Shown here: in pieces, positions 4,189-20,691 of the stretch
How positions within the stretch are numbered: position 1 is the stretch's first letter
How the letters are laid out: each line of letters opens with the position of its first letter
UHGV virus genome: UHGV-2078504
Reading direction: 5' to 3' (one strand)
DNA: 27,255 bases
Source of the DNA: a virus
Translations under genes and position numbers: made by a program
Notes under the pieces: model-generated
Databases searched by the model: none
What the model saw: only the letters and a program-made list of their open reading frames with translations
Told to the model about the DNA's origin: nothing

Positions 4189-4200
4189 AGCATAAGTCTT

Positions 4201-4488
4201 TTATCTTTTATTGCGGCTTAAAATAATTTCCTCCAGATTTTTGCTATCCAGCACCACCACGGTAAAGCCCAGCTCGCGCAGCCGCTCGTGCTCGCGCAAC
4301 TGGTCGGCGCGTGGTGCTTTGCCGGGTGCTTTGCATTCAACGAAAACAAGACGGCCGCCGGGTAGCAGAACAATGCGATCCGGTACCGAGCGGCGACCGG
4401 GAGATACGAACTTAAAGGCCACACCGCCAGCCTTTTTCACTTCAGCGACGAGGTGCTTTTCGATAAGGCTCTCACGTTCATAAGACAT
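4201..4488 (-). CDS. VRR-NUC domain nuclease
   Basis: 95-aa ORF with PD-(D/E)xK-like core (PDRIVLLPGGRLVFVECKAPGK); GC-rich like the core operon; family commonly partners SNF2 helicases in phage replication modules. Confidence 0.7.
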   Translation of the reverse strand: MSYERESLIEKHLVAEVKKAGGVAFKFVSPGRRSVPDRIVLLPGGRLVFVECKAPGKAPRADQLREHERLRELGFTVVVLDSKNLEEIILSRNKR

Positions 4489-4548
4489 AAATTTGCCTTG
4501 TTAACACTTATTGGGTAGTATCAAATAAAACAAGTATAAGGAATTAAT

Positions 4549-5577
4549 ATGTCACGAATCTTATTTCCCTCTTCATGTAATCCTGAAAAGATATTTAATT
4601 TTTGCAATGAAATTGAAAAACATTCAGGTCAACAGCAAATAACAATCGATTTTTCGCATATGGGAAGGATTGAACCATTTACAATGGTTTATGTTGCTAA
4701 GCATATTCGAGACTTCCATCGAAAACAGAAAAAGAACATTGATGGTTTTAAACTTTTTTGTAGCGGGCATGAGAATAAGGATTATGCCGCAAATATGGCA
4801 TTCTTTCGAGCCTTCGGGTTAAAGCATGGCCGTGAACCGGGATGTACAGATGGAAATAATAATTTTGTTCCATTTACAATTCTTCGTGTTCAAACAGTTA
4901 TAGATGAAGCTAACGATAAATATACTGAGGTGCAAGAGATAGTTGAGGAACGATCTGGTAAATTAGCAAAGATTCTTGCTCGCCAAGAAGAAGGCGACCT
5001 CATTGATGCTTTGACATTTTCTATTAGGGAAATTATGCGTAATGTTGTGGAACATAGTGATTCAAAGGTGATTGAATATTGTGCACAGTATTGGCCTTCT
5101 TATGACCGTGTTGAAATAACAATTTCTGATAATGGTATAGGAATGAAAAAATCTCTATCGAAGAACCCTTATATAGAAGCTGATAATGATTCTGAAGCCA
5201 TTCAGTTAGCGTTAATGCCATCTATTTCTAGTAAAAATTTTAAGGGGGCGAGAATCAATACAAGAAATCCTTGGCATAATTCGGGATTTGGCCTTTATAT
5301 GATCAGCCGTATATGTAAACTTGGCGGTAGTTTTCTTATTTGTAGCGGTGACCATGCAATATATCTAGATGAACACGGAAAGAAGCATATAGAGTTAGGT
5401 CATTATCATGAAGGAACTGTCGTTAGAATGGTGTTGAATACTAAAAAACTTGGTTCCTTAAGCTCAATGCTTACGCAGTTTAAGGAGGATGGCTACAAAA
5501 TAGCTGCAGAAATAAAACATACTGGAGTTTATACAGCATCAGCTGCTTCGCAGATGTTATCTAGGGATTTTAAGTGA
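4549..5577 (+). CDS. Hypothetical protein with C-terminal GHKL/histidine-kinase-like ATPase domain (moron)
   Basis: 342-aa AT-rich ORF; C-terminal half carries N-box-like REIMRNVVEHS, G1 box ISDNGIGM and G2 box NSGFGLYMISRI characteristic of HATPase_c (histidine kinase/anti-sigma-factor kinase/GHKL) folds; N-terminal ~110 aa of unknown function. Confidence 0.7.
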   Translation: MSRILFPSSCNPEKIFNFCNEIEKHSGQQQITIDFSHMGRIEPFTMVYVAKHIRDFHRKQKKNIDGFKLFCSGHENKDYAANMAFFRAFGLKHGREPGCTDGNNNFVPFTILRVQTVIDEANDKYTEVQEIVEERSGKLAKILARQEEGDLIDALTFSIREIMRNVVEHSDSKVIEYCAQYWPSYDRVEITISDNGIGMKKSLSKNPYIEADNDSEAIQLALMPSISSKNFKGARINTRNPWHNSGFGLYMISRICKLGGSFLICSGDHAIYLDEHGKKHIELGHYHEGTVVRMVLNTKKLGSLSSMLTQFKEDGYKIAAEIKHTGVYTASAASQMLSRDFK

Positions 5578-5584
5578 CTTTGTA

Positions 5585-7648
5585 TTACTCCTTACGGTAG
5601 TGGTACGCCTCAAAGCCGCCAGCATTCAGCGGAATATCGGGTGCCCATTCGGGGTTAGTGGAGAGAAGCGCGGAAAGCGCTTTATCGTTGAAATCTTCTG
5701 TGTCAGGTGCTTCGGTGATCACCTCGTCGTGTACCGTCAGCACAATGCTGTAACCGGCATCTTCGATAAGCGGCATGTTTCCGGCCAGAATGTCGCGGGC
5801 GGCCGCCTGGGTGATGTTCTCCACCAGCTTTCCGCCGTAGGTTTTGAGTCGTTGCCATTTACGCGAATAAGAGTTAACCCCCATGTAGGTGATATTCCCT
5901 TTTTCGATAACCGGAGACGGGTAGCATACAGCGCGTCCGGATGGTAGCTGTATGCGCAGCCACGCGCCATCGCGGCGGATTTTAAGATAACCGCAATACA
6001 ATGTTTTTTGCGGTGTGGCGATTGCAGTGCGGACGGTGCGCTCCAGTTCGTACCAGAAATCACAGGTCGCGGGATGCGCCCGGCGCCAGAGACGTTTAAG
6101 TGAGTCGCAGGCGATAAATACCCGTTCAGAAAGCCCGTAGGTTGACTTGCGTTTAACCGATTCGTCGTACCAGCTTTTCGCCTCGCGGATAACATCGCGG
6201 GGAATGTTTGGTAGTGCGGCGTTCGCCAGCTCGTCGAGATCGAGACCGTAAACCAGTGCAAAAGTGATGAAGGCCGACACACCACCACCATAACCCAGAC
6301 CGAGTTCCATGACTTTACCGATCTGACGCATGTGTTTATCAACATCATCTGGTGCAATATCGAAAGCTTTTGCATACGCCAGTTTATATAAGTCCGGACC
6401 CGTTCCGGCGTCGTACTCTCTGAATGCATTCAGTTTCCATTCTTCTCCCGCCAGCCATGCCAGCATACGGCCTTCAATGTTCGACAAGTCACTTACCACC
6501 AGCTTTTTGCCTGTTGGCGCGATAATGCAGCCACGTAACGCTGAACTGGTTAGTTCCATGATATTGTCAAACAGCAGGTCTGCACATCCGGCTTTCAGTG
6601 CTTCGATGCCTTCGTCTATTTGTTCCTGTTTTAGTGAAGGGCGGGGAAGGTTCTGGGGCTGGAATAGCCGTCCGGCCCAACGACCGGTACGTGACGCCCC
6701 GCAGAACTGTAGCGTACCGCGTAAGCGCCCGTCGTGGCTTACGCCTTTCATCAGTGCCTTGTATTTACTGGTGCTGGTAGTACTGGCCTGCAGGCGGATA
6801 GCCAGCAGTTCTTTCACGGCAGATGGTAAATCGGGGTCGGCAATACGACGTTCCAGAGTACTGCGTTGCATGTCTGGTAGCTCCACACCGTAGGATTCAA
6901 CAATGTGCTTAATCAACGCGTCTCGTTGTGTGGCTGCCTGCACTTCGCCATCAGTCATTTCCTGTGTACGCTTTGCCAGGCGCTTTTGTTCCTGGTCTAC
7001 CACGTCGATCGCAGCGCGTGCGAGTTCCACGTCCATGCAGACGCCCCGGTCATTGATCTGCTGATCACGATGCCAGAGCGCCAGTTCTGTCCCCTGATAA
7101 TTCCACTTCGGCAGACGTTTATAGACTTCGCGCATTGCCTCGATATCCAGTCCGGCGTAAGCAACAAAGCGCCGCCATTCTTCCGGGTGGGTTTTGCTGG
7201 TGGCCCGGCGCAGTTTGCTGTTTTTCGGGCGTGGCTTACAGAACAGCTGGATCAGCGCTTTACCTTCTTTGTCCTTCGCTTTGTCTTGCGGGACGCCTAG
7301 TACTTCGCAGAGTTCCCCCAGAGACCCCGGGAGACCGTGCGCCAGCGCCTGCACCATTGTGTCGCGCCAACGTTCGACTGGCGGTGCTAGGCGCGGCATT
7401 GCATAACGCAGGACGGTGCGGTCGAAGTGAGAGTTATGAAAATAAAGTAGGGTTTCAGGGGCTGCGATTGCTTCGTATAAGCCGTGTGGAATACCACCAC
7501 CGGCAGTGATATCCCACACGTTTACTGGTCCGTCGTTGATAGCCCATGCGAAAAGCATCACTTCAACGCCTTCGGCATACGCATGGGTACCGTTCGTAAT
7601 AGGGATTTCGCAATAGGTTTCCAGGTCGCCCCATAGTATATTGGACAT
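5585..7648 (-). CDS. Family A DNA polymerase with N-terminal 3'-5' exonuclease domain
   Basis: 687-aa ORF; Exo I-like WGDLETYCE; polymerase motif [12 protein letters not shown], motif [13 protein letters not shown], motif C LTVHDEV. Confidence 0.85.
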
Positions 7649-7694
7649 GTGTTTACCTTGGTTTTTATTCTATTAACTGATTAAAAGATTAATT

Positions 7695-8324
7695 ATGCAT
7701 ATGATCCAATACTTGATTGACCATACAGAGCATCTGGAGAAAATAGCTGGATATATTTTTTCATGTTTGATTGTTATGGGAGTCTGGATAAGAAAGATCA
7801 TTTTTAATTATAAGTATAAAGAGCCTAAATATGTCAAGAAGTTAATTTTATATTTAATTAAGTATGAACGTTATCTGGATAAGGAGGATAAGAAAGCCAT
7901 AGAAAAAAGAATAAATGATAAAATTATTCGTGATGCGCTGAAATTGCAATCCTCTTATAACCGAAGTGATGTTATTTACATTTGCAATAGATTAGAAAAA
8001 AGACAGTATATAAATCAGTTGATTAAGCTTCAGAATTATATAGAGAAAGATAACGGAGTGTTTTTTATTAATGTTGATTTTTCAGGTTTTTTATTTATTG
8101 TTAGTCGTCTGTTTTCCTTTCTGTGTTTTGTGCTGTTTACCCTTTTTTCTATTATCTGCATTATTTCCATAGGGCAAAATGAAGGCCTTTTAAATTATCT
8201 TGTGTATATGGTTATGATAATAGTTTTAGAGACTGTTGGTTTTTGGATGTATGATACTTTCCCGTCTAAGAAAAAGATCTGTGAACTAAATAAAGAATTG
8301 AGAAAGATTAAGATTCCTGAGTGA
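7695..8324 (+). CDS. Hypothetical AT-rich membrane protein (moron)
   Basis: 209-aa, very AT-rich ORF on the opposite strand to the operon; N-terminal TM helix (IAGYIFSCLIVMGVWI), lysine-rich soluble segment, then two or three C-terminal TM helices (FLFIVSRLFSFLCFVLFTLFSIICIISIG, LVYMVMIIVLETVGFWMY). Start could be 7695 or 7701. Confidence 0.6.
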   Translation: MHMIQYLIDHTEHLEKIAGYIFSCLIVMGVWIRKIIFNYKYKEPKYVKKLILYLIKYERYLDKEDKKAIEKRINDKIIRDALKLQSSYNRSDVIYICNRLEKRQYINQLIKLQNYIEKDNGVFFINVDFSGFLFIVSRLFSFLCFVLFTLFSIICIISIGQNEGLLNYLVYMVMIIVLETVGFWMYDTFPSKKKICELNKELRKIKIPE

Positions 8325-8342
8325 TTATACGCCTAATCAGTA

Positions 8343-8361
8343 GCCCGGTGTTTAACCGGGC
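8343..8361. terminator. Stem-loop between convergent genes (possible bidirectional terminator)
   Basis: GCCCGGT-gttta-ACCGGGC perfect 7-bp inverted repeat between the end of the 7695-8324 gene and the end of the 8377-8925 gene; no clear U-tract on either strand. Confidence 0.3.
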
Positions 8362-8376
8362 GTCTATGAAGTAGGG

Positions 8377-8925
8377 TTAAATTAGTGCTTCAGCATCAGC
8401 ACCTTCGCTGATATCGTCGAAATCGTCAGCGCTTGCCACTCCGCCGCCAGCGAATGCATCGCCGTCTCGCAGGAACTGGACTCCGCCGAGTGAGGCATTA
8501 ATGCGTTTACCGAAATTATTGTCCTGTGCCCAGATATCGATAACGGCGTTTACATAGCACCCTGCATAGGGACGTCCGTCAGCCTGAATAAGTGGCGAAC
8601 GATCGCGATCAAGAACAGCTGGGCGCGCTTTGTTAGCAGCATTCAGGAAGAAATTACCGGGGAAGCCTTCATACTCTGCTTTTTCATCACCATCATGCAG
8701 GCACAGATTGAGTTTTTTCTCCAGCTGGTTATAAATGGGCTCCCACTTCTCTCCCCATTTTTCCTTCGCTACCTGCTTCATAGCTTTACGGATTTCTTCC
8801 AGTTGTGGGTGTTTGGGTGACATTAAAAATACTGCGGAGAAACGTGGATCGCCTTCGCCGTTTACAGTTTTAGCTTCAAACAGAGACGGGAAGGCCAGAC
8901 GAACATTGTTCAGCTTCAGTTTCAT
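8377..8925 (-). CDS. DUF2815-like phage protein, putative ssDNA-binding protein
   Basis: 182-aa ORF in replication module beginning MKLKLNNVRLAFPSLFE; acidic C-terminal tail ...DDFDDISEGADAEALI resembling SSB/gp2.5-type interaction tails. Family assignment is from memory. Confidence 0.55.
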   Translation of the reverse strand: MKLKLNNVRLAFPSLFEAKTVNGEGDPRFSAVFLMSPKHPQLEEIRKAMKQVAKEKWGEKWEPIYNQLEKKLNLCLHDGDEKAEYEGFPGNFFLNAANKARPAVLDRDRSPLIQADGRPYAGCYVNAVIDIWAQDNNFGKRINASLGGVQFLRDGDAFAGGGVASADDFDDISEGADAEALI

Positions 8926-8940
8926 GGGTATTTCCTTAAA

Positions 8941-10242
8941 TCAGATGAGGTCTGCGGTTAGCGTATCGTCGGATACGTCGTCGAAATCATTTACAGGGTT
9001 GATATTGAGTGCGGGGCGTGGGTCTGACTCGGGAACGACGGTGGGTTTACCATCAGCTCGTGTTATCAGTGCCTCGACTTTTGACCAACGGCGCGGACTG
9101 GCCTTTTTGATAAGTTTTTCGGCTTTTGTGGGACTAATAAGTTTAAAGTCGAATACTTCTTCAGTTTTGTACCTGAACTGGTCCTTCAGAAGTGCGCGAG
9201 CTGCCTCTTCATCACTCCAGGCCCGGTTACCTTGTTTTCCTGTTACCAGTTTAAACCCCGGTACCGGATGTCCGGCATTGAGTTCATTGTGAACCCGGTC
9301 CCGTACTGCCTTTAGCCAGGATTCAATAAAGTCGGCCTGGCTATAGATCTCCGCAAGCTGCTCAATGGTTAACAGAGGTACACGTGCGCTGGCATTGGTG
9401 ATTATTTCGCTGACAGGCTTTGTCAGATCTTCAAAGTCGCTGGCCGCTGTTTGTAAATGCTGCATTTTCTGGGCAGTGCAAATAGCTTTTGCTTTACAGA
9501 AGCGGCACTGTTTTTCTCCAGGTATGAAGTTTTCCAGCGGTAGTGTCTCAATGCCTTCGCATTCAGCAATATTGAGAACAAGGATCGCACTGGTTGCGGC
9601 CTCCTGTGCCCGTTCACCGAAAGACTGAAGTTCCTGTACGGTTAATGACCATTCTGAAACGTGGTTGAGCCTTGGCTGGTGAATAAATAATCTTACAGTC
9701 TCAAAGTCATACAGCATGCTGAATTGTTCGAGCGCACCCAGAGCATACAGTTGTAGTTGCTCATTTTGTTCTGCATCAATGCGGACGCCTTTGCCATATT
9801 TCAGGTCGTGGATTTGTAATTCGTTACCAGCGATGATTATGCCGTCGGCAGTTCCGAAAGATTCTTCCACCCCCGTTATATGTGAGAAATCAACACGTTG
9901 TTCAACCAATAGTTCATTATTCTGTGCAAGAGTCCAGACCGTATCAACATACCGGCCAACGGCTTCGACCATTTCATCATCCACCTGTGGGCCAGATGTA
10001 TTATCAGGATTTTCGCGAAGGGGGTATGAGCCGAGAAACATAGAAACATTGCATCCGGCGTAGTGTTCCGGGTGGCTTTGCCTGTTTCGTAGAACTTTTT
10101 CAGCAAGCGCGTGCGCTGCAGTGCCCTCGATTGCAAAAGTTGTTTCTTTATCCGGTTGTGTGGCCTCCAGCGCCAGACTTCCTGGGCAGCGCATCCATCG
10201 ATGCGCTGATGATGGAGAAAGTTGTGCATGAACGTCTGGCAT
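8941..10242 (-). CDS. DUF2800-like PD-(D/E)xK nuclease with Cas4-like cysteine cluster
   Basis: 433-aa ORF; N-terminal [15 protein letters not shown], nuclease-like core (IHDLKYGKG), C-terminal cysteines [10 protein letters not shown]; acidic C-terminal tail ...[15 protein letters not shown]. Confidence 0.65.
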
Positions 10243-10244
10243 GA

Positions 10245-11147
10245 TTAACCCTCCAGTGCTTTTTCAGCCAGGGTGATTACTTCAGCGAGATTTTCATCCG
10301 TTACTTCACCAAGTTTCCTGGCTCCCTGTTTTTCCAGAATTGCAATAGCTTCTGCCCGGTAACCCCCTTTTGCTAACTGGAGGATCAACCCTTCAGCTTG
10401 TTTGCGTAGTGCCGCGAAATCAATTGTATGGTCATCTTTGGCGTCATTATTCTGGCTGGAATTTGCTGCGTCTCTACGTGCAAATTCTTCCTGCAGCTGA
10501 AGGTACTCAACACGGTTGATCTCGATATGGCCTTTTTTAAGCATCTCGTTCAACTTGCGTAAGGTATGGAGTTCACTGGCTGCTGTGCCGGATACATTTT
10601 TGACGTAAAACGGCCCCGTGCGTTCTCCATCTTTGTTACTGGCCTTTTTCGGCTTAACTTCATCACGCCCATCTGCAGGTGCATCAAGTAGCTGCTCGGC
10701 AAAAGCACGTCGCTCGCCGATGGTTGGCAGGTCGTCCCAGAACTTAAGAATGTTACGGGACAGGTCCAGGAGAGCAGGTTTAAGCAGCGCCCTGGCTCGT
10801 TTGACGCCCTGTAATGCGCTGTCGAGAGCATCAATCTGAACTACTCGTTTATCGCCTTCAGCATCACGGTAGGCAACAGCACGTTGCAGCATGTCTTCTG
10901 TGATAGGGGTGGCTACCGGGTAGAAAACAGCCAGTGCGATAACGTCGCTGAACTCCAGATCATCCAGTGTCATTGCCGCTGACATGTTTTCAGCTTCAGT
11001 TGCTGTATCCCGACATTCCTGCACTCGTGAAATCGTGTCAGGATGCATAACAATACCTGATGCCATTGTGCGGATAAGACGTTCAAGCAGCGCATTATGT
11101 TGTGCTAGAAGTTGATTATTAAGTTCGAGACTGGTTTCTAAACTCAT
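10245..11147 (-). CDS. Hypothetical phage protein (early-left operon)
   Basis: 300-aa ORF tightly packed (2-nt gap) with the downstream nuclease gene; mainly helical/charged composition; no motif recognised. Confidence 0.55.
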
Positions 11148-11326
11148 ACTGTGGTCCTCGCTACAAGGAGAATGAAAGTGATGATCAGACCGAGCGCAGT
11201 GGCAACGGCCAGACCGGTCATCAAATCGAAGTTTTTACGGCGATAACGGAGAACATCGCGCCCCGTCAGTCGATGGATGTGTTCAGGTTTCATCGGTTGT
11301 ATTCCTTTTTTCATATCGGGGAGCAC
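11144..11326 (-). CDS. Small hypothetical protein with C-terminal transmembrane helix
   Basis: 60-aa ORF, 4-nt overlap (ATGA) with next gene; C-terminal hydrophobic segment LAVATALGLIITFILLVA. Short, so coding status uncertain. Confidence 0.4.
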   Translation of the reverse strand: MLPDMKKGIQPMKPEHIHRLTGRDVLRYRRKNFDLMTGLAVATALGLIITFILLVARTTV

Positions 11327-17140: not shown

Positions 17141-17617
17141 ATGCAGACACTAAATTCCCAACGTAAAGCTTTCCTGGATATGGTGGCATGGTCAGAAGGA
17201 ACGGATAACGGGCGACAACCGACACGTAATCACGGTTATGACGTTATCGTCGGAGGTGAGTTGTTCACTGATTACTCCGATCACCCTCGCAAACTTGTCA
17301 CGCTAAACCCGAAGCTTAAATCAACAGCTGCAGGCCGGTATCAGCTTCTTTCACGCTGGTGGGATGCCTACCGCAAGCAGCTTGGCCTGAAAGATTTTTC
17401 GCCAGAAAATCAGGACGCTGTGGCGCTGCAGCAGATTAAAGAGCGTGGCGCTTTACCGATGATTGACCGTGGCGATATTCGTCAGGCAATCGACCGTTGC
17501 AGCAATATCTGGGCGTCGTTACCTGGTGCAGGTTACGGTCAGTATGAACATAAAATCGGTGACCTGATTTCCAGGTTTAAAGATGCTGGTGGGGTGGTAA
17601 ATGAAGCTGACTTATAA
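17141..17617 (+). CDS. R: Endolysin, lambda R-type lytic transglycosylase
   Basis: 158-aa product is near-identical over most of its length to phage lambda R as recalled (NSQRKAFLDMVAWSEGTDNGRQPTRNHGYDVIVGGELFTDYSDHPRKLVTLNPKLKST...). Confidence 0.9.
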   Translation: MQTLNSQRKAFLDMVAWSEGTDNGRQPTRNHGYDVIVGGELFTDYSDHPRKLVTLNPKLKSTAAGRYQLLSRWWDAYRKQLGLKDFSPENQDAVALQQIKERGALPMIDRGDIRQAIDRCSNIWASLPGAGYGQYEHKIGDLISRFKDAGGVVNEADL

Positions 17618-18125
17618 GATTGTCATCGCGGCATTTTTCTTCTCTGTCTTTGGGGCGCTCGTCTGGTCTGCAAACCATTACCACAGCAAGTATCAGGCAG
17701 AAAAGTTGCGGGCTGATAAAGCGGAAGGTGAAGCTGAATATCAAGGGAAAGTGATAGCTAATCAGGCATTAAACTTCAATCGTTTTAACCAGATAGCAGA
17801 AAACGCAAGCCGATTAAATTCTCTGGTCGACATCGATCACGAGAAGACAGTCATCAAATACCGTGAGGTTCTGCTCCGTGAAAAGAACTGTGATTTCCCT
17901 GTTCCTGTTGATATTGCTGTCGGGTTGCTCAACTACGCGAACCGTTTACGCGCCAGCGCATTGCACGCCGATTCCGGGGACATTGACTCAGTCGGTGATC
18001 GTGCCACTACCACCAGAACGTTGACATATTGCCAGGCTGTTCTGTGGATTAACCCACTGTTGGCAGCCATCGAGAAGGCGAATAACCAGTTGGCTGGTGT
18101 CCGACAAATAGAACAGTCCCGGTAA
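17601..18125 (+). CDS. Rz: Rz-like inner-membrane spanin (i-spanin)
   Basis: 174-aa ORF overlapping the endolysin stop, N-terminal TM helix (IVIAAFFFSVFGALVWS) then coiled-coil periplasmic domain; contains an embedded +1-frame lipoprotein ORF. Confidence 0.75.
   Translation: MKLTYKIVIAAFFFSVFGALVWSANHYHSKYQAEKLRADKAEGEAEYQGKVIANQALNFNRFNQIAENASRLNSLVDIDHEKTVIKYREVLLREKNCDFPVPVDIAVGLLNYANRLRASALHADSGDIDSVGDRATTTRTLTYCQAVLWINPLLAAIEKANNQLAGVRQIEQSR
17878..18024 (+). CDS. Rz1: Rz1-like outer-membrane lipoprotein spanin (o-spanin), embedded in Rz in the +1 frame
   Basis: Hand translation from GTG 17878: (M)KRTVISLFLLILLSGCSTTRTVYAPAHCTPIPGTLTQSVIVPLPPER, stop TGA 18022-18024; lipobox LLSGC, proline-rich mature part; GAGG 9 nt upstream. 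Confidence 0.6.
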   Translation: MKRTVISLFLLILLSGCSTTRTVYAPAHCTPIPGTLTQSVIVPLPPER

Positions 18126-18186: not shown

Positions 18187-18759
18187 ATGACTAAGAAGCT
18201 GAAAGCAAAACACGAGGTGTTTTGTCGCGAGTTTCTTGTCGATCTGAATGCTACACAAGCAGCTATTCGCGCAGGCTATGCCTCCAGGCGAGCACATGTT
18301 ACGGGGGCTGAACTATATGGTAAACCTGAGATACGCGCCCGCATTAACGAGCTAAAGCAGGAGCGTATTGATCAACTGGGCATTGATGCGAATTATGTGC
18401 TAATGCGACTGGTTGAGATCGACAGGCTCGATGTGGCTGACATCCTGGAGGACGATTTAAGTATTAAGCCTCTGTCTGCGTGGCCGGAATCGTGGCGTCG
18501 GTACCTGAGTGGATTTAACCTCGCTGAAATGTTTGAGGGGCGAGGAGATGACAGAGAAATGGTCGGGCTCCTTAAAAAGATTAAGTGGCCTGATAAGGTT
18601 AAAAACCTTGAGTTGCTTGGGCGCCATGTTTCTGTTCAGGCGTTTAAAGACAACGTCAAAAATGAAGTGACTGGCGCTGATGGAGGACCAGTCAGAACAG
18701 AAATTACCAACTTAACGCCGGAGCAGGCTGCAGAGGCGTATAGAAAAATGATGGGGTGA
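18187..18759 (+). CDS. terS: Terminase small subunit
   Basis: 190-aa ORF with N-terminal FCREFLVDLNATQAAIRAGY motif typical of terminase small subunits; precedes the large subunit. Confidence 0.75.
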   Translation: MTKKLKAKHEVFCREFLVDLNATQAAIRAGYASRRAHVTGAELYGKPEIRARINELKQERIDQLGIDANYVLMRLVEIDRLDVADILEDDLSIKPLSAWPESWRRYLSGFNLAEMFEGRGDDREMVGLLKKIKWPDKVKNLELLGRHVSVQAFKDNVKNEVTGADGGPVRTEITNLTPEQAAEAYRKMMG

Positions 18760-18784
18760 TAGCCGCATGTTGCGGCTATGTATT

Positions 18785-18997
18785 TTAGGCTTGCTTTGGT
18801 CGAGTAATTCGGCCAAGAGCTTTAATTGCAGCGACTTTGACGTTGTGATTTAAGTCTGAAGATAAAGCAAGTAAGCGATTTACATGAGCTGGCGTTGCTG
18901 AAGCACTTTCACCGAGAGCATAAATTGCAGACAATTTTACTTCGTTGTTAAGGTCGTTGGTTAATTCCAACAACTTAGCACTAACTGCTGGTGTCAT
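18785..18997 (-). CDS. Small AT-rich hypothetical protein with HEAT-like repeats, antisense between terS and terL
   Basis: Strong AGGAGG Shine-Dalgarno 4 nt upstream of the ATG at 18995-18997 (minus strand); 70-aa product MTPAVSAKLLELTNDLNNEVKLSAIYALGES...LNHNVKVAAIKALGRI has two HEAT/PBS-lyase-like repeat units. The longer ORF to 19045 is probably not the start. Confidence 0.5.
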   Translation of the reverse strand: MTPAVSAKLLELTNDLNNEVKLSAIYALGESASATPAHVNRLLALSSDLNHNVKVAAIKALGRITRPKQA

Positions 18998-19067
18998 AAA
19001 ACCTCCTGTAATTGGTACATAAACACTATCAACTTTGTTACGCAAAAACTCAATGCCTGGAATTGTT

Positions 19068-20691
19068 TATGCCTATTCCGTTTAAATTCGACTTCAGGAA
19101 CCCTGATTACCAGATGGTTTTTGAATGGCGGATGGAACGCTTACAGCGCATTCGCCAGAACCCTGAAATATTGCCAGCACTAAAACAGTTTTACCGAACC
19201 AACCCGGCTCAGTTCATCATCGACTGGGGCATGACAACGGACCCGCGTAATATTGATTATGGCCTGCCGGTAACCATTCCGTTTTTACTCTTCCCTAAGC
19301 AGGAGGAGTGGATCCACTGGATTATGGAACGCTGGAGCAATCGGGAGAATGGTATTACCGAAAAATCCCGTGAAATGGGGCTCAGTTGGACCGCGATCGG
19401 ACTGGCCTGCTCGCTTTGTCTCTTCAACAAAGAAATGGTTATCGGTTTCGGCTCCCGTAAAGAGGAATACGTCGACAGCACTGGTGACCCGAAAGCATTG
19501 TTCTGGAAGGCACGCAAGTTCGTGGAAACGCTACCTGTAGAGTTTCGCGGTTCGTGGAGCGAGAAGAAGCACGCGCCATATATGCGTGTTGAGTTTCCTG
19601 AAACAGGTGCCGTTATCAAAGGCGAGGCTGGCGATAATATTGGTCGTGGTGACCGTACCACGCTTTATCTGGTTGATGAGGCTGCATTCCTTCAGCGTCC
19701 TCTGCTGATTGATGCGGCGTTGTCACAAACGACGCGTTGCCGTATCGACCTGAGTTCAGTTAACGGCATGGCTAACCCGTTCGCTCAGAAGCGTCATGGC
19801 GGGAAGATACCGGTATTCACATTCCACTGGCGGGATGATCCTCGCAAGGATGAAGAGTGGTATCGCAGGGAATGCGAGAAAATCGATAATCCGGTGGTGG
19901 TGGCACAGGAACTTGATCTGAACTACAGCGCATCAGCGGAAGGAGTCCTGATTCCATCCGAATGGGTACAGGCTGCCGTTGATGCGCATATCAAACTGGG
20001 GATCCAGCCAACAGGCAAACGACTTGGCGCGATGGATGTCGCCGACGAAGGCAGGGACAAAAATGCCTTTTCCACCCGTCATGGCTTCCTCCTGGAAAAT
20101 GTGCGGGAATGGTCCGGTGTGGGCAGCGACATTTATCAGTCCGTCGAGAAGGTTTTCGGCTTTTGCGAACAGGACAACCTCGAAGAGTTTCGCTTTGACG
20201 AGGACGGGCTGGGCGCTGGCGTTCGCGGCGATGCACGCGCTATCAACGAACTGCGTAACGCTGCGCGTCGACCGTCAATACTTGCCACACCGTTTCGAGG
20301 TAGTGGCGCGGTATTTGATCCGGATGATGAAGCTGTTCGCGGGGACAACGGGCAAGCCGCACGTCTGAACAAGGACTTCTTCGCTAACGCCAAAGCCCAG
20401 AGCTGGTGGCGGTTACGTAAACTTTTTCAGAATACCTGGCGCGCCGTGGTTGAAGGTATGGCTTACAACCCGGACGAAATCATCTCAATCAGCAGTAGCA
20501 TGGCACTCAAAGATAAACTCATCATCGAGCTTTCGCAGCCGACCTATTCCATTAATGGTGTGGGAAAAATAGTTATTGATAAACAGCCTGATGGAACCCG
20601 ATCGCCAAACCTTGCCGACTCGGTGATGATCAACTATGCCCCAATGAATTCAGCCCTGAACATCTGGGAGCTGCTAGGGAGACAGGCCTGA
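19068..20691 (+). CDS. terL: Terminase large subunit
   Basis: Large ORF with ATPase Walker B-like [10 protein letters not shown] and C-terminal nuclease region; start placed at the ATG at 19068 (MPIPFKFDF...) to avoid overlapping the antisense small gene; the longest ORF begins at 19012. Confidence 0.8.

What the first reader, a model, noticed from the sequence alone, without database searches (positions are those of the whole stretch)
18785..18997. Small HEAT-repeat-like gene embedded antisense between terminase small and large subunit genes
terS and terL are normally adjacent or overlapping. Here a ~300-bp AT-rich spacer holds a minus-strand ORF with a near-consensus AGGAGG ribosome-binding site and a 70-aa product of two HEAT/PBS-lyase-like helical repeats (…NEVKLSAIYALGES… and …NHNVKVAAIKALGRI…). 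A gene in this position, antisense to the packaging operon, is unusual. It could be a moron (anti-defence or exclusion factor) or a regulator of terminase expression by antisense transcription.
Basis: partly seen in the sequence, partly recalled or inferred. Interest (0 to 1): 0.55.

Follow-up and report, generated by a model that had tools for sequence, protein, structure and literature searches.

The report
Small antisense HEAT-repeat cargo gene
A real 70-residue gene sits backwards between the two DNA-packaging genes of an E. coli prophage; it is an optional cargo gene from an unstudied family that also occurs on common IncI resistance plasmids, and its function is unknown.

Summary
Window 18785-18997 (-) is a real 70-aa gene with ATG 18997 and AGGAGG 19002-19007. 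It scores above Pfam's HEAT_2 cut-off, models as four helices that superpose on alphaRep proteins, and is under purifying selection (8 synonymous vs 1 non-synonymous change to its nearest allele).

It lies in a 309-bp, low-GC insert. Most related prophages have terS and terL only 2 nt apart.

The gene behaves like a moron, meaning an optional, self-contained cargo cassette. It has a promoter-like motif conserved across diverged alleles, a conserved Shine-Dalgarno sequence and a flanking hairpin.

In this TerL lineage the terS-terL junction is a hot spot for cargo. All 24 recognised cargo ORFs there are antisense: 7 HEAT, the rest DUF2158, DUF1508, GNAT and others.

The family has at least 138 clusters of 66-72 aa across Enterobacterales. 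It also sits next to excA on IncI plasmids, where it occurs in 745 of 5426 complete E. coli genomes. The plasmid copy keeps a decayed fragment of the terS 5' end upstream, so it came from a phage.

These points argue against a terminase-specific or purely antisense-RNA role. No paper on the family was found. The partner protein and the phenotype are unknown, and transcription was not tested.

The parts
18187..18759 (+). terS (terminase small subunit, 190 aa). Its last 39 residues form a tail shared with other TerS types that partner the same TerL family.
   Evidence: Pfam Terminase_2 E=2.8e-31; tail shared at 64-70% identity with the DUF2280-type and 340-aa TerS.
18760..19068 (.). 309-bp low-GC insert between the terS stop and the terL ATG; this is the cargo cassette.
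   Evidence: Absent from E. coli C and four sampled prophages, where the gap is 2 nt; GC 37.5-40.5%. The same cassette lies behind a different terS (DUF2280 type) in strain AR_0118.
18759..18779 (.). GC-rich 9-bp hairpin between the convergent terS and HEAT stop codons. Its T-run is on the late-operon (+) strand.
   Evidence: Terminator-like site on the + strand. The RNA fold of the minus strand is -13.3 kcal/mol, z=-3.75. A hairpin of different sequence occupies the same place in most other alleles.
18785..18997 (-). HEAT-repeat gene: 70 aa, two helix-turn-helix repeats (helices 3-12, 18-29, 36-45, 51-65).
   Evidence: PGAP names the same ORF 'HEAT repeat domain-containing protein' WP_032214630.1.
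19002..19007 (-). Shine-Dalgarno AGGAGG, 4 nt upstream of the ATG.
   Evidence: Read from the sequence. A GGAG-type Shine-Dalgarno sequence with the same spacing is present in every class 1 allele.
19025..19053 (-). Predicted sigma-70 promoter: -35 TTGAGT (19048-19053), 17-nt spacer, -10 GATAGT (19025-19030). The predicted start is near 19018.
   Evidence: The architecture TTGAnn-16/17-(C/G)ATA(T/G)T, with the -10 ending 27-30 nt before the ATG, recurs in 5 of 7 independent alleles at 8/12 or better. Shuffle-based P is about 4e-5, but the position window was chosen after seeing the data. No transcript data.
19069..20691 (+). terL (terminase large subunit, 540 aa). It has a weak ribosome-binding site of its own, because the insert removes the close terS-terL spacing seen in relatives.
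   Evidence: PHROG phrog_2 E=3.2e-32, no Pfam hit. Homologues start at MPIPF.

Best explanation
The gene is a moron: an optional, self-contained cargo cassette inserted in antisense orientation at the terS-terL junction of a temperate, Q-regulated phage. It encodes a small soluble protein of two HEAT repeats with no sign of a catalytic domain. Shown: the gene is real and under selection, the insert is clean, the junction is a cargo hot spot, and the family also lives on IncI plasmids. Inferred: the cassette is transcribed from its own sigma-70 promoter in the spacer next to the terL start. Inferred: this happens mainly while the late operon is silent, that is, in the lysogen. Inferred: the hairpin, whose T-run faces terS, shields the cassette from leaky read-through, and Q-modified polymerase overrides it during lytic growth. 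Inferred: the protein acts by binding a partner one-to-one through the surface formed by its second helices. That surface carries the family-conserved Tyr26, Glu30, Lys59, Arg63 and Arg66. Because phage and plasmid members share this surface, the partner is more likely a host or widely shared component than the phage's own terminase. The partner and the phenotype are unknown.
For: - **Real gene:** Pfam HEAT_2 above its cut-off; dN/dS 0.04-0.15 in close pairs; confident four-helix model matching alphaRep.
- **Cassette behaviour:** clean 309-bp indel against E. coli C. The window allele is in 5 and a second allele (62% identical protein) in 2 of 5426 complete E. coli genomes, whereas the TerL family is at 364 places in 347 genomes.
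- **Allele swapping:** HEAT identity does not track TerL identity (L019 62% vs 98.7%; L023 50% vs 90.7%), so alleles are exchanged at a fixed slot.
- **Expression signals:** conserved promoter-like motif, Shine-Dalgarno sequence and hairpin across alleles whose synonymous sites are saturated.
- **Hot spot:** of 115 non-identical junctions in this TerL family, 53 are empty and 24 hold recognised cargo ORFs, all antisense: 7 HEAT, 6 DUF2158, 5 unknown, 2 GNAT, 2 DUF1508, 1 DUF6953, 2 others.
- **Role not tied to terminase:** family members lie upstream of terS in other phages and next to excA on IncI1, IncI-gamma and IncI2 plasmids. They occur in 1215 of 72,556 plasmids and 745 of 5426 E. coli genomes.
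Against: - No transcript, protein or phenotype data exist for any member, so the promoter and lysogen-state expression are inferences. The general promoter scan found no site at its 9/12 threshold.
- The hairpin's T-run is on the opposite strand, so it is not a textbook terminator for the HEAT transcript.
- Within phages the gene always lies next to terS or terL, and synteny with the 540-aa TerL holds from Escherichia to Proteus and Pantoea. A packaging-linked role is therefore not excluded.
- Nothing here identifies a partner protein.
Confidence: 0.65

Rival explanations
1. The cassette is a cis-acting antisense regulator. Transcription from the HEAT promoter runs head-on into late-operon transcription, or yields an antisense RNA, and so tunes terL or terS expression; the protein is secondary.
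For: The gene faces the late operon. The insert removes the 2-nt terS-terL spacing. The predicted -35 lies only about 15 nt from the terL ATG. In two class 2 phages the HEAT ATG is 29-33 nt from the terS ATG, so its promoter must overlap the terS 5' end.
Against: There is strong purifying selection on the protein, and residues are conserved across 138 clusters. Homologues on IncI plasmids have no terminase nearby. Unrelated protein-coding cargo occupies the same slot in the same orientation. The predicted transcript would not cover the terL ribosome-binding site or start codon.
Confidence: 0.1
2. The protein is a packaging accessory factor that binds TerS or TerL, for example to adjust terminase assembly or pac-site choice.
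For: All phage members lie next to terS. Synteny with the 540-aa TerL is kept across at least six genera. HEAT repeats are protein-binding modules (established knowledge of the fold).
Against: About 98% of E. coli prophages with this TerL lack the gene. It is not co-transcribed with the late genes. Alleles are swapped independently of TerL. It is maintained on IncI plasmids. The same slot holds unrelated cargo.
Confidence: 0.1
3. The protein is a conflict factor, either anti-defence or exclusion. One version: it mimics two repeats of the HEAT sensor arrays of bacterial NACHT (STAND) immune proteins and acts as a decoy or competitor.
For: Five of the six non-family hits examined, chosen from those with the highest sequence identity (44-50% over 65 aa), carry a NACHT domain upstream of their HEAT array, one with a TIR domain as well; the sixth matched HEAT-type and other helical-repeat families only. 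There is a weak PADLOC hit to HEAT-ARM_XIII (E=1.7e-4). The plasmid copy sits beside the entry-exclusion gene excA. In one phage the neighbour is an ImmA/IrrE-DUF4411 pair.
Against: The similarity may only reflect a near-consensus repeat, since artificial consensus alphaRep proteins also match strongly. The NACHT relatives are metagenomic singletons with no taxonomy. On plasmids the gene is not in the leading region, where early anti-defence genes usually sit (own knowledge). There is no functional evidence.
Confidence: 0.12
4. The ORF is a chance reading frame or a decayed fragment of a longer HEAT-repeat gene.
For: It is short and lies in AT-rich intergenic DNA. A few truncated copies exist (P0007, 42 aa).
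Against: Length is constant at 66-72 aa in at least 138 clusters. dN/dS is far below 1. The Shine-Dalgarno sequence is conserved. The Pfam score is above the curated cut-off.
Confidence: 0.02

Closest known systems
PBS-lyase-type HEAT repeats (Pfam HEAT_2 PF13646, HEAT_PBS PF03130) and the artificial alphaRep binders derived from them
   Same: Same repeat consensus (AAxALGxIG) and the same two-helix repeat geometry. Profile match E=5e-12; superposition 1.1-1.4 A.
   Different: It has only two repeats (70 aa) and stands alone, with no capping repeats or attached domain. Each repeat is about 33 residues rather than 31. Positions that vary in alphaRep binders (Tyr26, Glu30, Lys59, Arg63) are fixed across this family.
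Phage morons, for example bor of phage lambda, which is antisense to the late operon between the lysis genes and the terminase genes (own knowledge of lambda)
   Same: An optional gene inside the late region, opposite in orientation, with its own expression signals and a different base composition, absent from close relatives.
   Different: It sits between terS and terL and so removes their close spacing. The product is a soluble repeat protein, not a lipoprotein. Expression in the lysogen is not shown.
Hha/YmoA small H-NS-binding modulators on conjugative plasmids
   Same: On IncI plasmids a 69-aa hha gene (pESBL-EA11) and the 69-aa HEAT gene are alternative occupants of the same slot downstream of excA. 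Both are small helical proteins.
   Different: No sequence similarity, opposite orientation, different fold family. The published TnSeq result for that slot concerns hha, not the HEAT gene (PMC4288162).
C-terminal HEAT arrays of bacterial NACHT/STAND NTPases
   Same: Most of the highest-identity non-family hits examined are of this kind (44-50% over both repeats).
   Different: Those proteins are 860-1410 aa with an NTPase domain and many repeats. The phage protein has neither, and the similarity may be only a consensus effect.

Membership tests
HEAT_2 / PBS-type HEAT repeat proteins | Sequence score above Pfam's curated cut-off | tested here: met
   HEAT_2 34.9 bits against 27.7; HEAT 31.0 against 23.5.
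HEAT_2 / PBS-type HEAT repeat proteins | Tandem helix-turn-helix repeats forming a solenoid | tested here: met
   AlphaFold2 pLDDT 89 with four helices; rmsd 1.1-1.4 A to alphaRep, TM about 0.8.
Phage moron (autonomous cargo cassette) | Present in some and absent from closely related phages, with clean boundaries | tested here: met
   309-bp indel against a 2-nt junction. The window allele and a second allele are in 5 and 2 complete E. coli genomes, against 364 places for this TerL family.
Phage moron (autonomous cargo cassette) | Base composition different from the flanking phage genes | tested here: met
   GC 37.5-40.5% against about 47-55%.
Phage moron (autonomous cargo cassette) | Own promoter | tested here: inconclusive
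   An 8/12 sigma-70-like motif is conserved in position in 5 of 7 alleles. It is below the 9/12 threshold of the general scan. No transcript data.
Phage moron (autonomous cargo cassette) | Own terminator | tested here: inconclusive
   A hairpin follows the stop codon in most alleles, but its T-run is on the late-operon strand.
Phage moron (autonomous cargo cassette) | Expressed from the repressed prophage | not testable with these tools
   Needs strand-specific RNA-seq or a reporter in a lysogen.
cis-antisense regulator of terminase genes | Transcript overlaps the translation start region of the target gene | tested here: inconclusive
   In the window the predicted start (about 19018) lies 50 nt from the terL ATG and points away from it. 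In two class 2 phages the promoter must overlap the terS 5' end. All of this is prediction.
Hha/YmoA family | Sequence similarity to Hha | tested here: not met
   No BLASTP alignment at E<=100; no Hha family appeared among the Pfam hits at E<=1.
Known anti-phage defence or candidate defence proteins (PADLOC) | Significant full-length match to a defence protein model | tested here: not met
   Only a 55-residue match to a 1972-position HEAT-ARM_XIII model, E=1.7e-4.

The most novel reading that the evidence does not exclude
These miniature two-repeat HEAT proteins could be a new class of effector made by resident mobile elements. The family is shared by lambdoid prophages and IncI plasmids and moved from phage to plasmid, as the terS fragment upstream of the plasmid copy shows. 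The protein would bind a conserved host or competitor protein through its fixed Tyr/Glu/Lys/Arg surface. It could act as a decoy of NACHT-HEAT immune sensors, or as a silencing or exclusion helper comparable to Hha, which occupies the same plasmid slot.
Probability: 0.15. Interest if true: 0.7.

Novelty: new member of a known kind. Interest (0 to 1): 0.4.

Why it matters
The window's own gene is rare and probably dispensable for the phage, so by itself it is an ordinary cargo gene.

Two points give it some value:

- **The family is large and unstudied.** It has at least 138 clusters across Enterobacterales and occurs on 1215 plasmids and in about 14% of complete E. coli genomes. No paper on it was found in the library searched. 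A 68-aa protein kept at constant size with a fixed surface on both prophages and IncI resistance plasmids probably has one conserved partner, and finding that partner is a tractable experiment.
- **The junction is a defined cargo site.** The terS-terL junction of this terminase lineage is a hot spot that, among the cargo ORFs recognised here, holds only antisense genes. That gives a specific place to look for further uncharacterised prophage accessory genes.

Tried and rejected
- **Sequenced phages:** tblastn of the window protein and of a class 2 member against 50,697 GenBank phage records found nothing. A metagenome-assembled 'Phage NG54' (MK047638.1) does carry a member.
- **PHROGs, NCBIfam, Rfam:** no meaningful match for the gene or the spacer.
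- **Viral structure library (BFVD):** no significant match.
- **Literature:** searches on HEAT repeat with prophage, terminase, moron, anti-defense or IncI1, and on three protein accessions, found nothing on the family.
- **A false lead:** the pESBL TnSeq paper lists a 210-nt gene at the matching plasmid position as needed for maintenance. Fetching the record showed it is hha on the other strand, not the HEAT gene.
- **Taxonomy of the NACHT-HEAT relatives:** the look-up returned unnamed metagenomic singletons.
- **Searching with the single protein:** the representative-library search was swamped by long multi-repeat HEAT proteins. The family only emerged from a profile of small members.
- **The 86-aa TTG start:** rejected (see the observation check).

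Full report
**1. What is in the window**

The window is a temperate phage inserted in E. coli. It carries an integrase, DNA polymerase, CI/Cro-type repressors, a primase, a Q antiterminator, holin, lysozyme and Rz. These are followed by terS (18187-18759), terL (19069-20691), the portal gene and head genes.

Between the terS stop and the terL ATG lie 309 nt of low-GC DNA, 37.5-40.5% against about 47-55% in the flanks. On the minus strand this DNA holds a 70-codon ORF at 18785-18997. AGGAGG lies at 19002-19007, 4 nt before the ATG. A 9-bp GC-rich hairpin (18759-18779) sits between the converging stop codons.

**2. Is it a gene?**

Yes, on four grounds.

- It scores above Pfam's curated cut-offs for HEAT_2 and HEAT.
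- A profile of the family matches alphaRep proteins, which are artificial consensus PBS-type HEAT repeats, at E=5e-12.
- The AlphaFold2 model (pLDDT 89) has four helices and superposes on alphaRep structures at 1.1-1.4 A.
- Close alleles differ almost only at synonymous sites: 8 synonymous vs 1 non-synonymous, and 7 vs 0. Other close pairs give dN/dS of 0.09-0.15.

RefSeq's PGAP pipeline already calls the same ORF 'HEAT repeat domain-containing protein'. The 86-aa TTG start used in one strain is unlikely, because homologues are 66-72 aa and keep the Shine-Dalgarno sequence before the same ATG.

**3. It is an insert**

In E. coli C the same terS tail and terL are 2 nt apart, and the alignment shows a clean indel. 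Four further sampled prophages have the 2-nt junction, as do 77 of the 80 closest IMG/VR loci.

This TerL family is at 364 places in 347 of 5426 complete E. coli genomes. The window's allele is in 5 genomes. A second allele, only 62% identical in protein, is in 2.

That second allele lies between flanks that are 99.5% (TerS) and 98.7% (TerL) identical in protein to the window. It is bracketed by a 15-bp direct repeat of the terS-stop/terL-start junction. Recombination between such repeats could restore the 2-nt junction; that step is inference.

The same cassette also follows a DUF2280-type terS and a 340-aa terS in Yersinia.

**4. Expression signals**

Alleles whose synonymous sites are saturated still share three features:

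- a GGAG-type Shine-Dalgarno sequence at fixed spacing;
- a hairpin of differing sequence after the stop codon;
- a motif TTGAnn-16/17-(C/G)ATA(T/G)T whose -10 ends 27-30 nt before the ATG.

The motif reaches 8/12 in 5 of 7 independent alleles. Shuffling gives P of about 4e-5, but the position window was chosen after seeing the data and the alleles share ancestry. In the window it is TTGAGT (19048-19053) and GATAGT (19025-19030).

The hairpin's T-run is on the late-operon strand. I read it as an insulator against read-through from terS that Q-modified polymerase would ignore. That reading is inference, and no transcript data were available.

**5. The junction is a cargo hot spot**

I surveyed 196 IMG/VR loci of this TerL family, using three TerL queries. 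They gave 115 non-identical junctions.

| Junction content | Number |
|---|---|
| Empty (10 nt or less) | 53 |
| Spacer of 100-570 nt, no recognised ORF | 38 |
| Recognised cargo ORF | 24 |

All 24 cargo ORFs are antisense to the late operon:

| Cargo | Number |
|---|---|
| HEAT family | 7 |
| DUF2158 | 6 |
| Unknown, 103-118 aa | 5 |
| GNAT acetyltransferase | 2 |
| DUF1508 | 2 |
| DUF6953 (together with DUF2158) | 1 |
| Other | 2 |

A gene in this position is therefore not unusual for this lineage. HEAT is the commonest occupant but not the only one.

**6. The family is much wider than the terminase region**

A profile search found at least 138 clusters of 66-72 aa. They span Escherichia, Salmonella, Citrobacter, Enterobacter, Serratia, Pantoea, Proteus, Providencia, Yersinia, Rahnella, Erwinia and Dickeya, and none carries a functional name. 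Four contexts were seen.

- **Class 1:** between terS and terL, as in the window. This is also found in Serratia, Proteus, Pantoea and a metagenomic phage.
- **Class 2:** antisense in the region upstream of terS. In two phages the HEAT ATG lies head to head with the terS ATG, 29-33 nt away; in others a 145-159-aa antisense ORF or several hundred bases lie between.
- **Plasmids:** IncI1, IncI-gamma and IncI2 conjugative plasmids, antisense and convergent with the entry-exclusion gene excA.
- **Chromosome:** one Providencia member lies in a non-phage chromosomal setting.

The plasmid form is in 1215 of 72,556 plasmids. It is in 745 of 5426 complete E. coli genomes, at 748 plasmid and 16 chromosomal places.

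The plasmid copy keeps, just upstream, a decayed copy of the first codons of terS. Its reverse complement reads ATGGCACTCACTTACAAACAGGAG, against terS MALTDKQE. The same fragment is present in some class 2 prophages. This shows phage-to-plasmid transfer. It also suggests, by inference, that the fragment carries the promoter.

In plasmid pESBL-EA11 the same slot holds hha on the other strand instead. The two proteins share no sequence similarity.

**7. What it most likely does**

The protein is small and soluble and consists of two binding-type repeats, with no sign of a catalytic domain. Beyond the structural repeat consensus, Tyr26, Glu30, Lys59, Arg63 and Arg66 are nearly invariant in phage and plasmid members alike. 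Aligning the repeats by eye to the alphaRep consensus, as I recall it, places the first four at positions that are varied in alphaRep binders to create binding surfaces. This points to one conserved partner.

The best-supported model is a resident-state cargo protein that binds a host or widely shared target (confidence 0.65 for the cassette model). The identity of the partner is open.

- A purely antisense-RNA role is unlikely, given selection on the protein and the plasmid homologues.
- A terminase accessory role is unlikely, given the gene's rarity among phages with the same TerL, the allele swapping and the plasmid homologues.
- A decoy of NACHT-HEAT sensors is a lead only. The 44-50% identity to such arrays may be a consensus effect, and those proteins have no taxonomy.

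**8. Novelty**

The kind of element (a moron) and the fold (HEAT) are known, and the ORF is already annotated generically. Three things appear to be new: the recognition of a constant-size family shared by prophages and IncI plasmids, the terS fragment that shows the direction of transfer, and the antisense-only cargo slot at terS-terL.

No paper on the family was found in the library searched. No member was found in 50,697 GenBank phage records.

Noticed in passing
L145, L168, L198, L204 (terS-terL spacers, 204-229 nt); also the left part of the L022/L149 spacer: Many Proteus, Yersinia and Serratia-type relatives have an ORF-less spacer between terS and terL. It carries a conserved non-coding element: three phased TATGCA repeats (GCTATGCAAAA...TTTTATGCA...TTTATGCA) and a distal GGTAACGGTCATTATGTTAAA box. 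It could be a pac or TerS-binding site or a promoter. It is not present in the window.
   Followed up: partly
window 18643-18759 (TerS residues 152-190); L002 3893-4009; L004 6255-6359: Three different TerS architectures (190-aa Terminase_2, DUF2280 type, 340-aa Terminase_2) end in the same 35-39-residue tail (64-70% identity). All precede the same TerL family, so the tail is probably the TerL-binding segment on exchangeable DNA-binding domains.
   Followed up: partly
L049 4905-5003 (IncI plasmid pEC404/03-2); L029, L034, L035 upstream of the HEAT gene: A decayed copy of the first 25-60 nt of a phage terS gene lies just upstream of the HEAT gene on IncI plasmids and in some prophages. It marks phage-to-plasmid transfer of the cassette.
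   Followed up: yes
L049 4751-5209 against L058 (pESBL-EA11) 1753-2054: On IncI plasmids the slot downstream of excA holds either the HEAT gene or, on the other strand, a 69-aa hha gene. The two are alternative cassettes between conserved flanks.
   Followed up: partly
L019 4913-5258 (IMG/VR UViG_2778261313_000016): The second E. coli HEAT allele is flanked by a 15-bp direct repeat, GGGCTA(A/G)GTATGCCG, which duplicates the terS-stop/terL-start junction. Recombination between the repeats would restore the 2-nt junction.
   Followed up: partly
L027 756-2398: In one class 2 phage the HEAT gene neighbours an ImmA/IrrE (Peptidase_M78) and DUF4411 gene pair, with PADLOC RmrA-like hits. This is a candidate defence or toxin-antitoxin cargo in the lysis-terS region.
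   Followed up: partly
L003 2941-3489 (-); L020 5757-6347; L029 4347-4826: Other antisense ORFs of 159-196 aa, with no Pfam or PADLOC match, lie just upstream of terS in related prophages. That junction is therefore also a site for antisense cargo.
   Followed up: partly
window 17863-18024 (+), inside Rz 17601-18125: An embedded ORF in another frame of Rz encodes a typical Rz1 lipoprotein (LLSGC lipobox, proline-rich). This is the ordinary spanin arrangement.
   Followed up: no
L003 5685-6443; L038 3105-3582: PGAP labels truncated copies of the DUF1073 portal gene 'anti-CBASS protein Acb1 family protein' pseudogenes. The intact gene matches Phage_portal_3 (E=1e-105), so the name looks like an annotation artefact.
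   Followed up: no
window about 4200-11150 (-): The early region encodes a DNA polymerase together with DUF2800, DUF2815, VRR-NUC, DUF4406 and an 'Nmad5 family putative nucleotide modification protein'. This hints at phage DNA modification (annotation of the near-identical strain).
   Followed up: no
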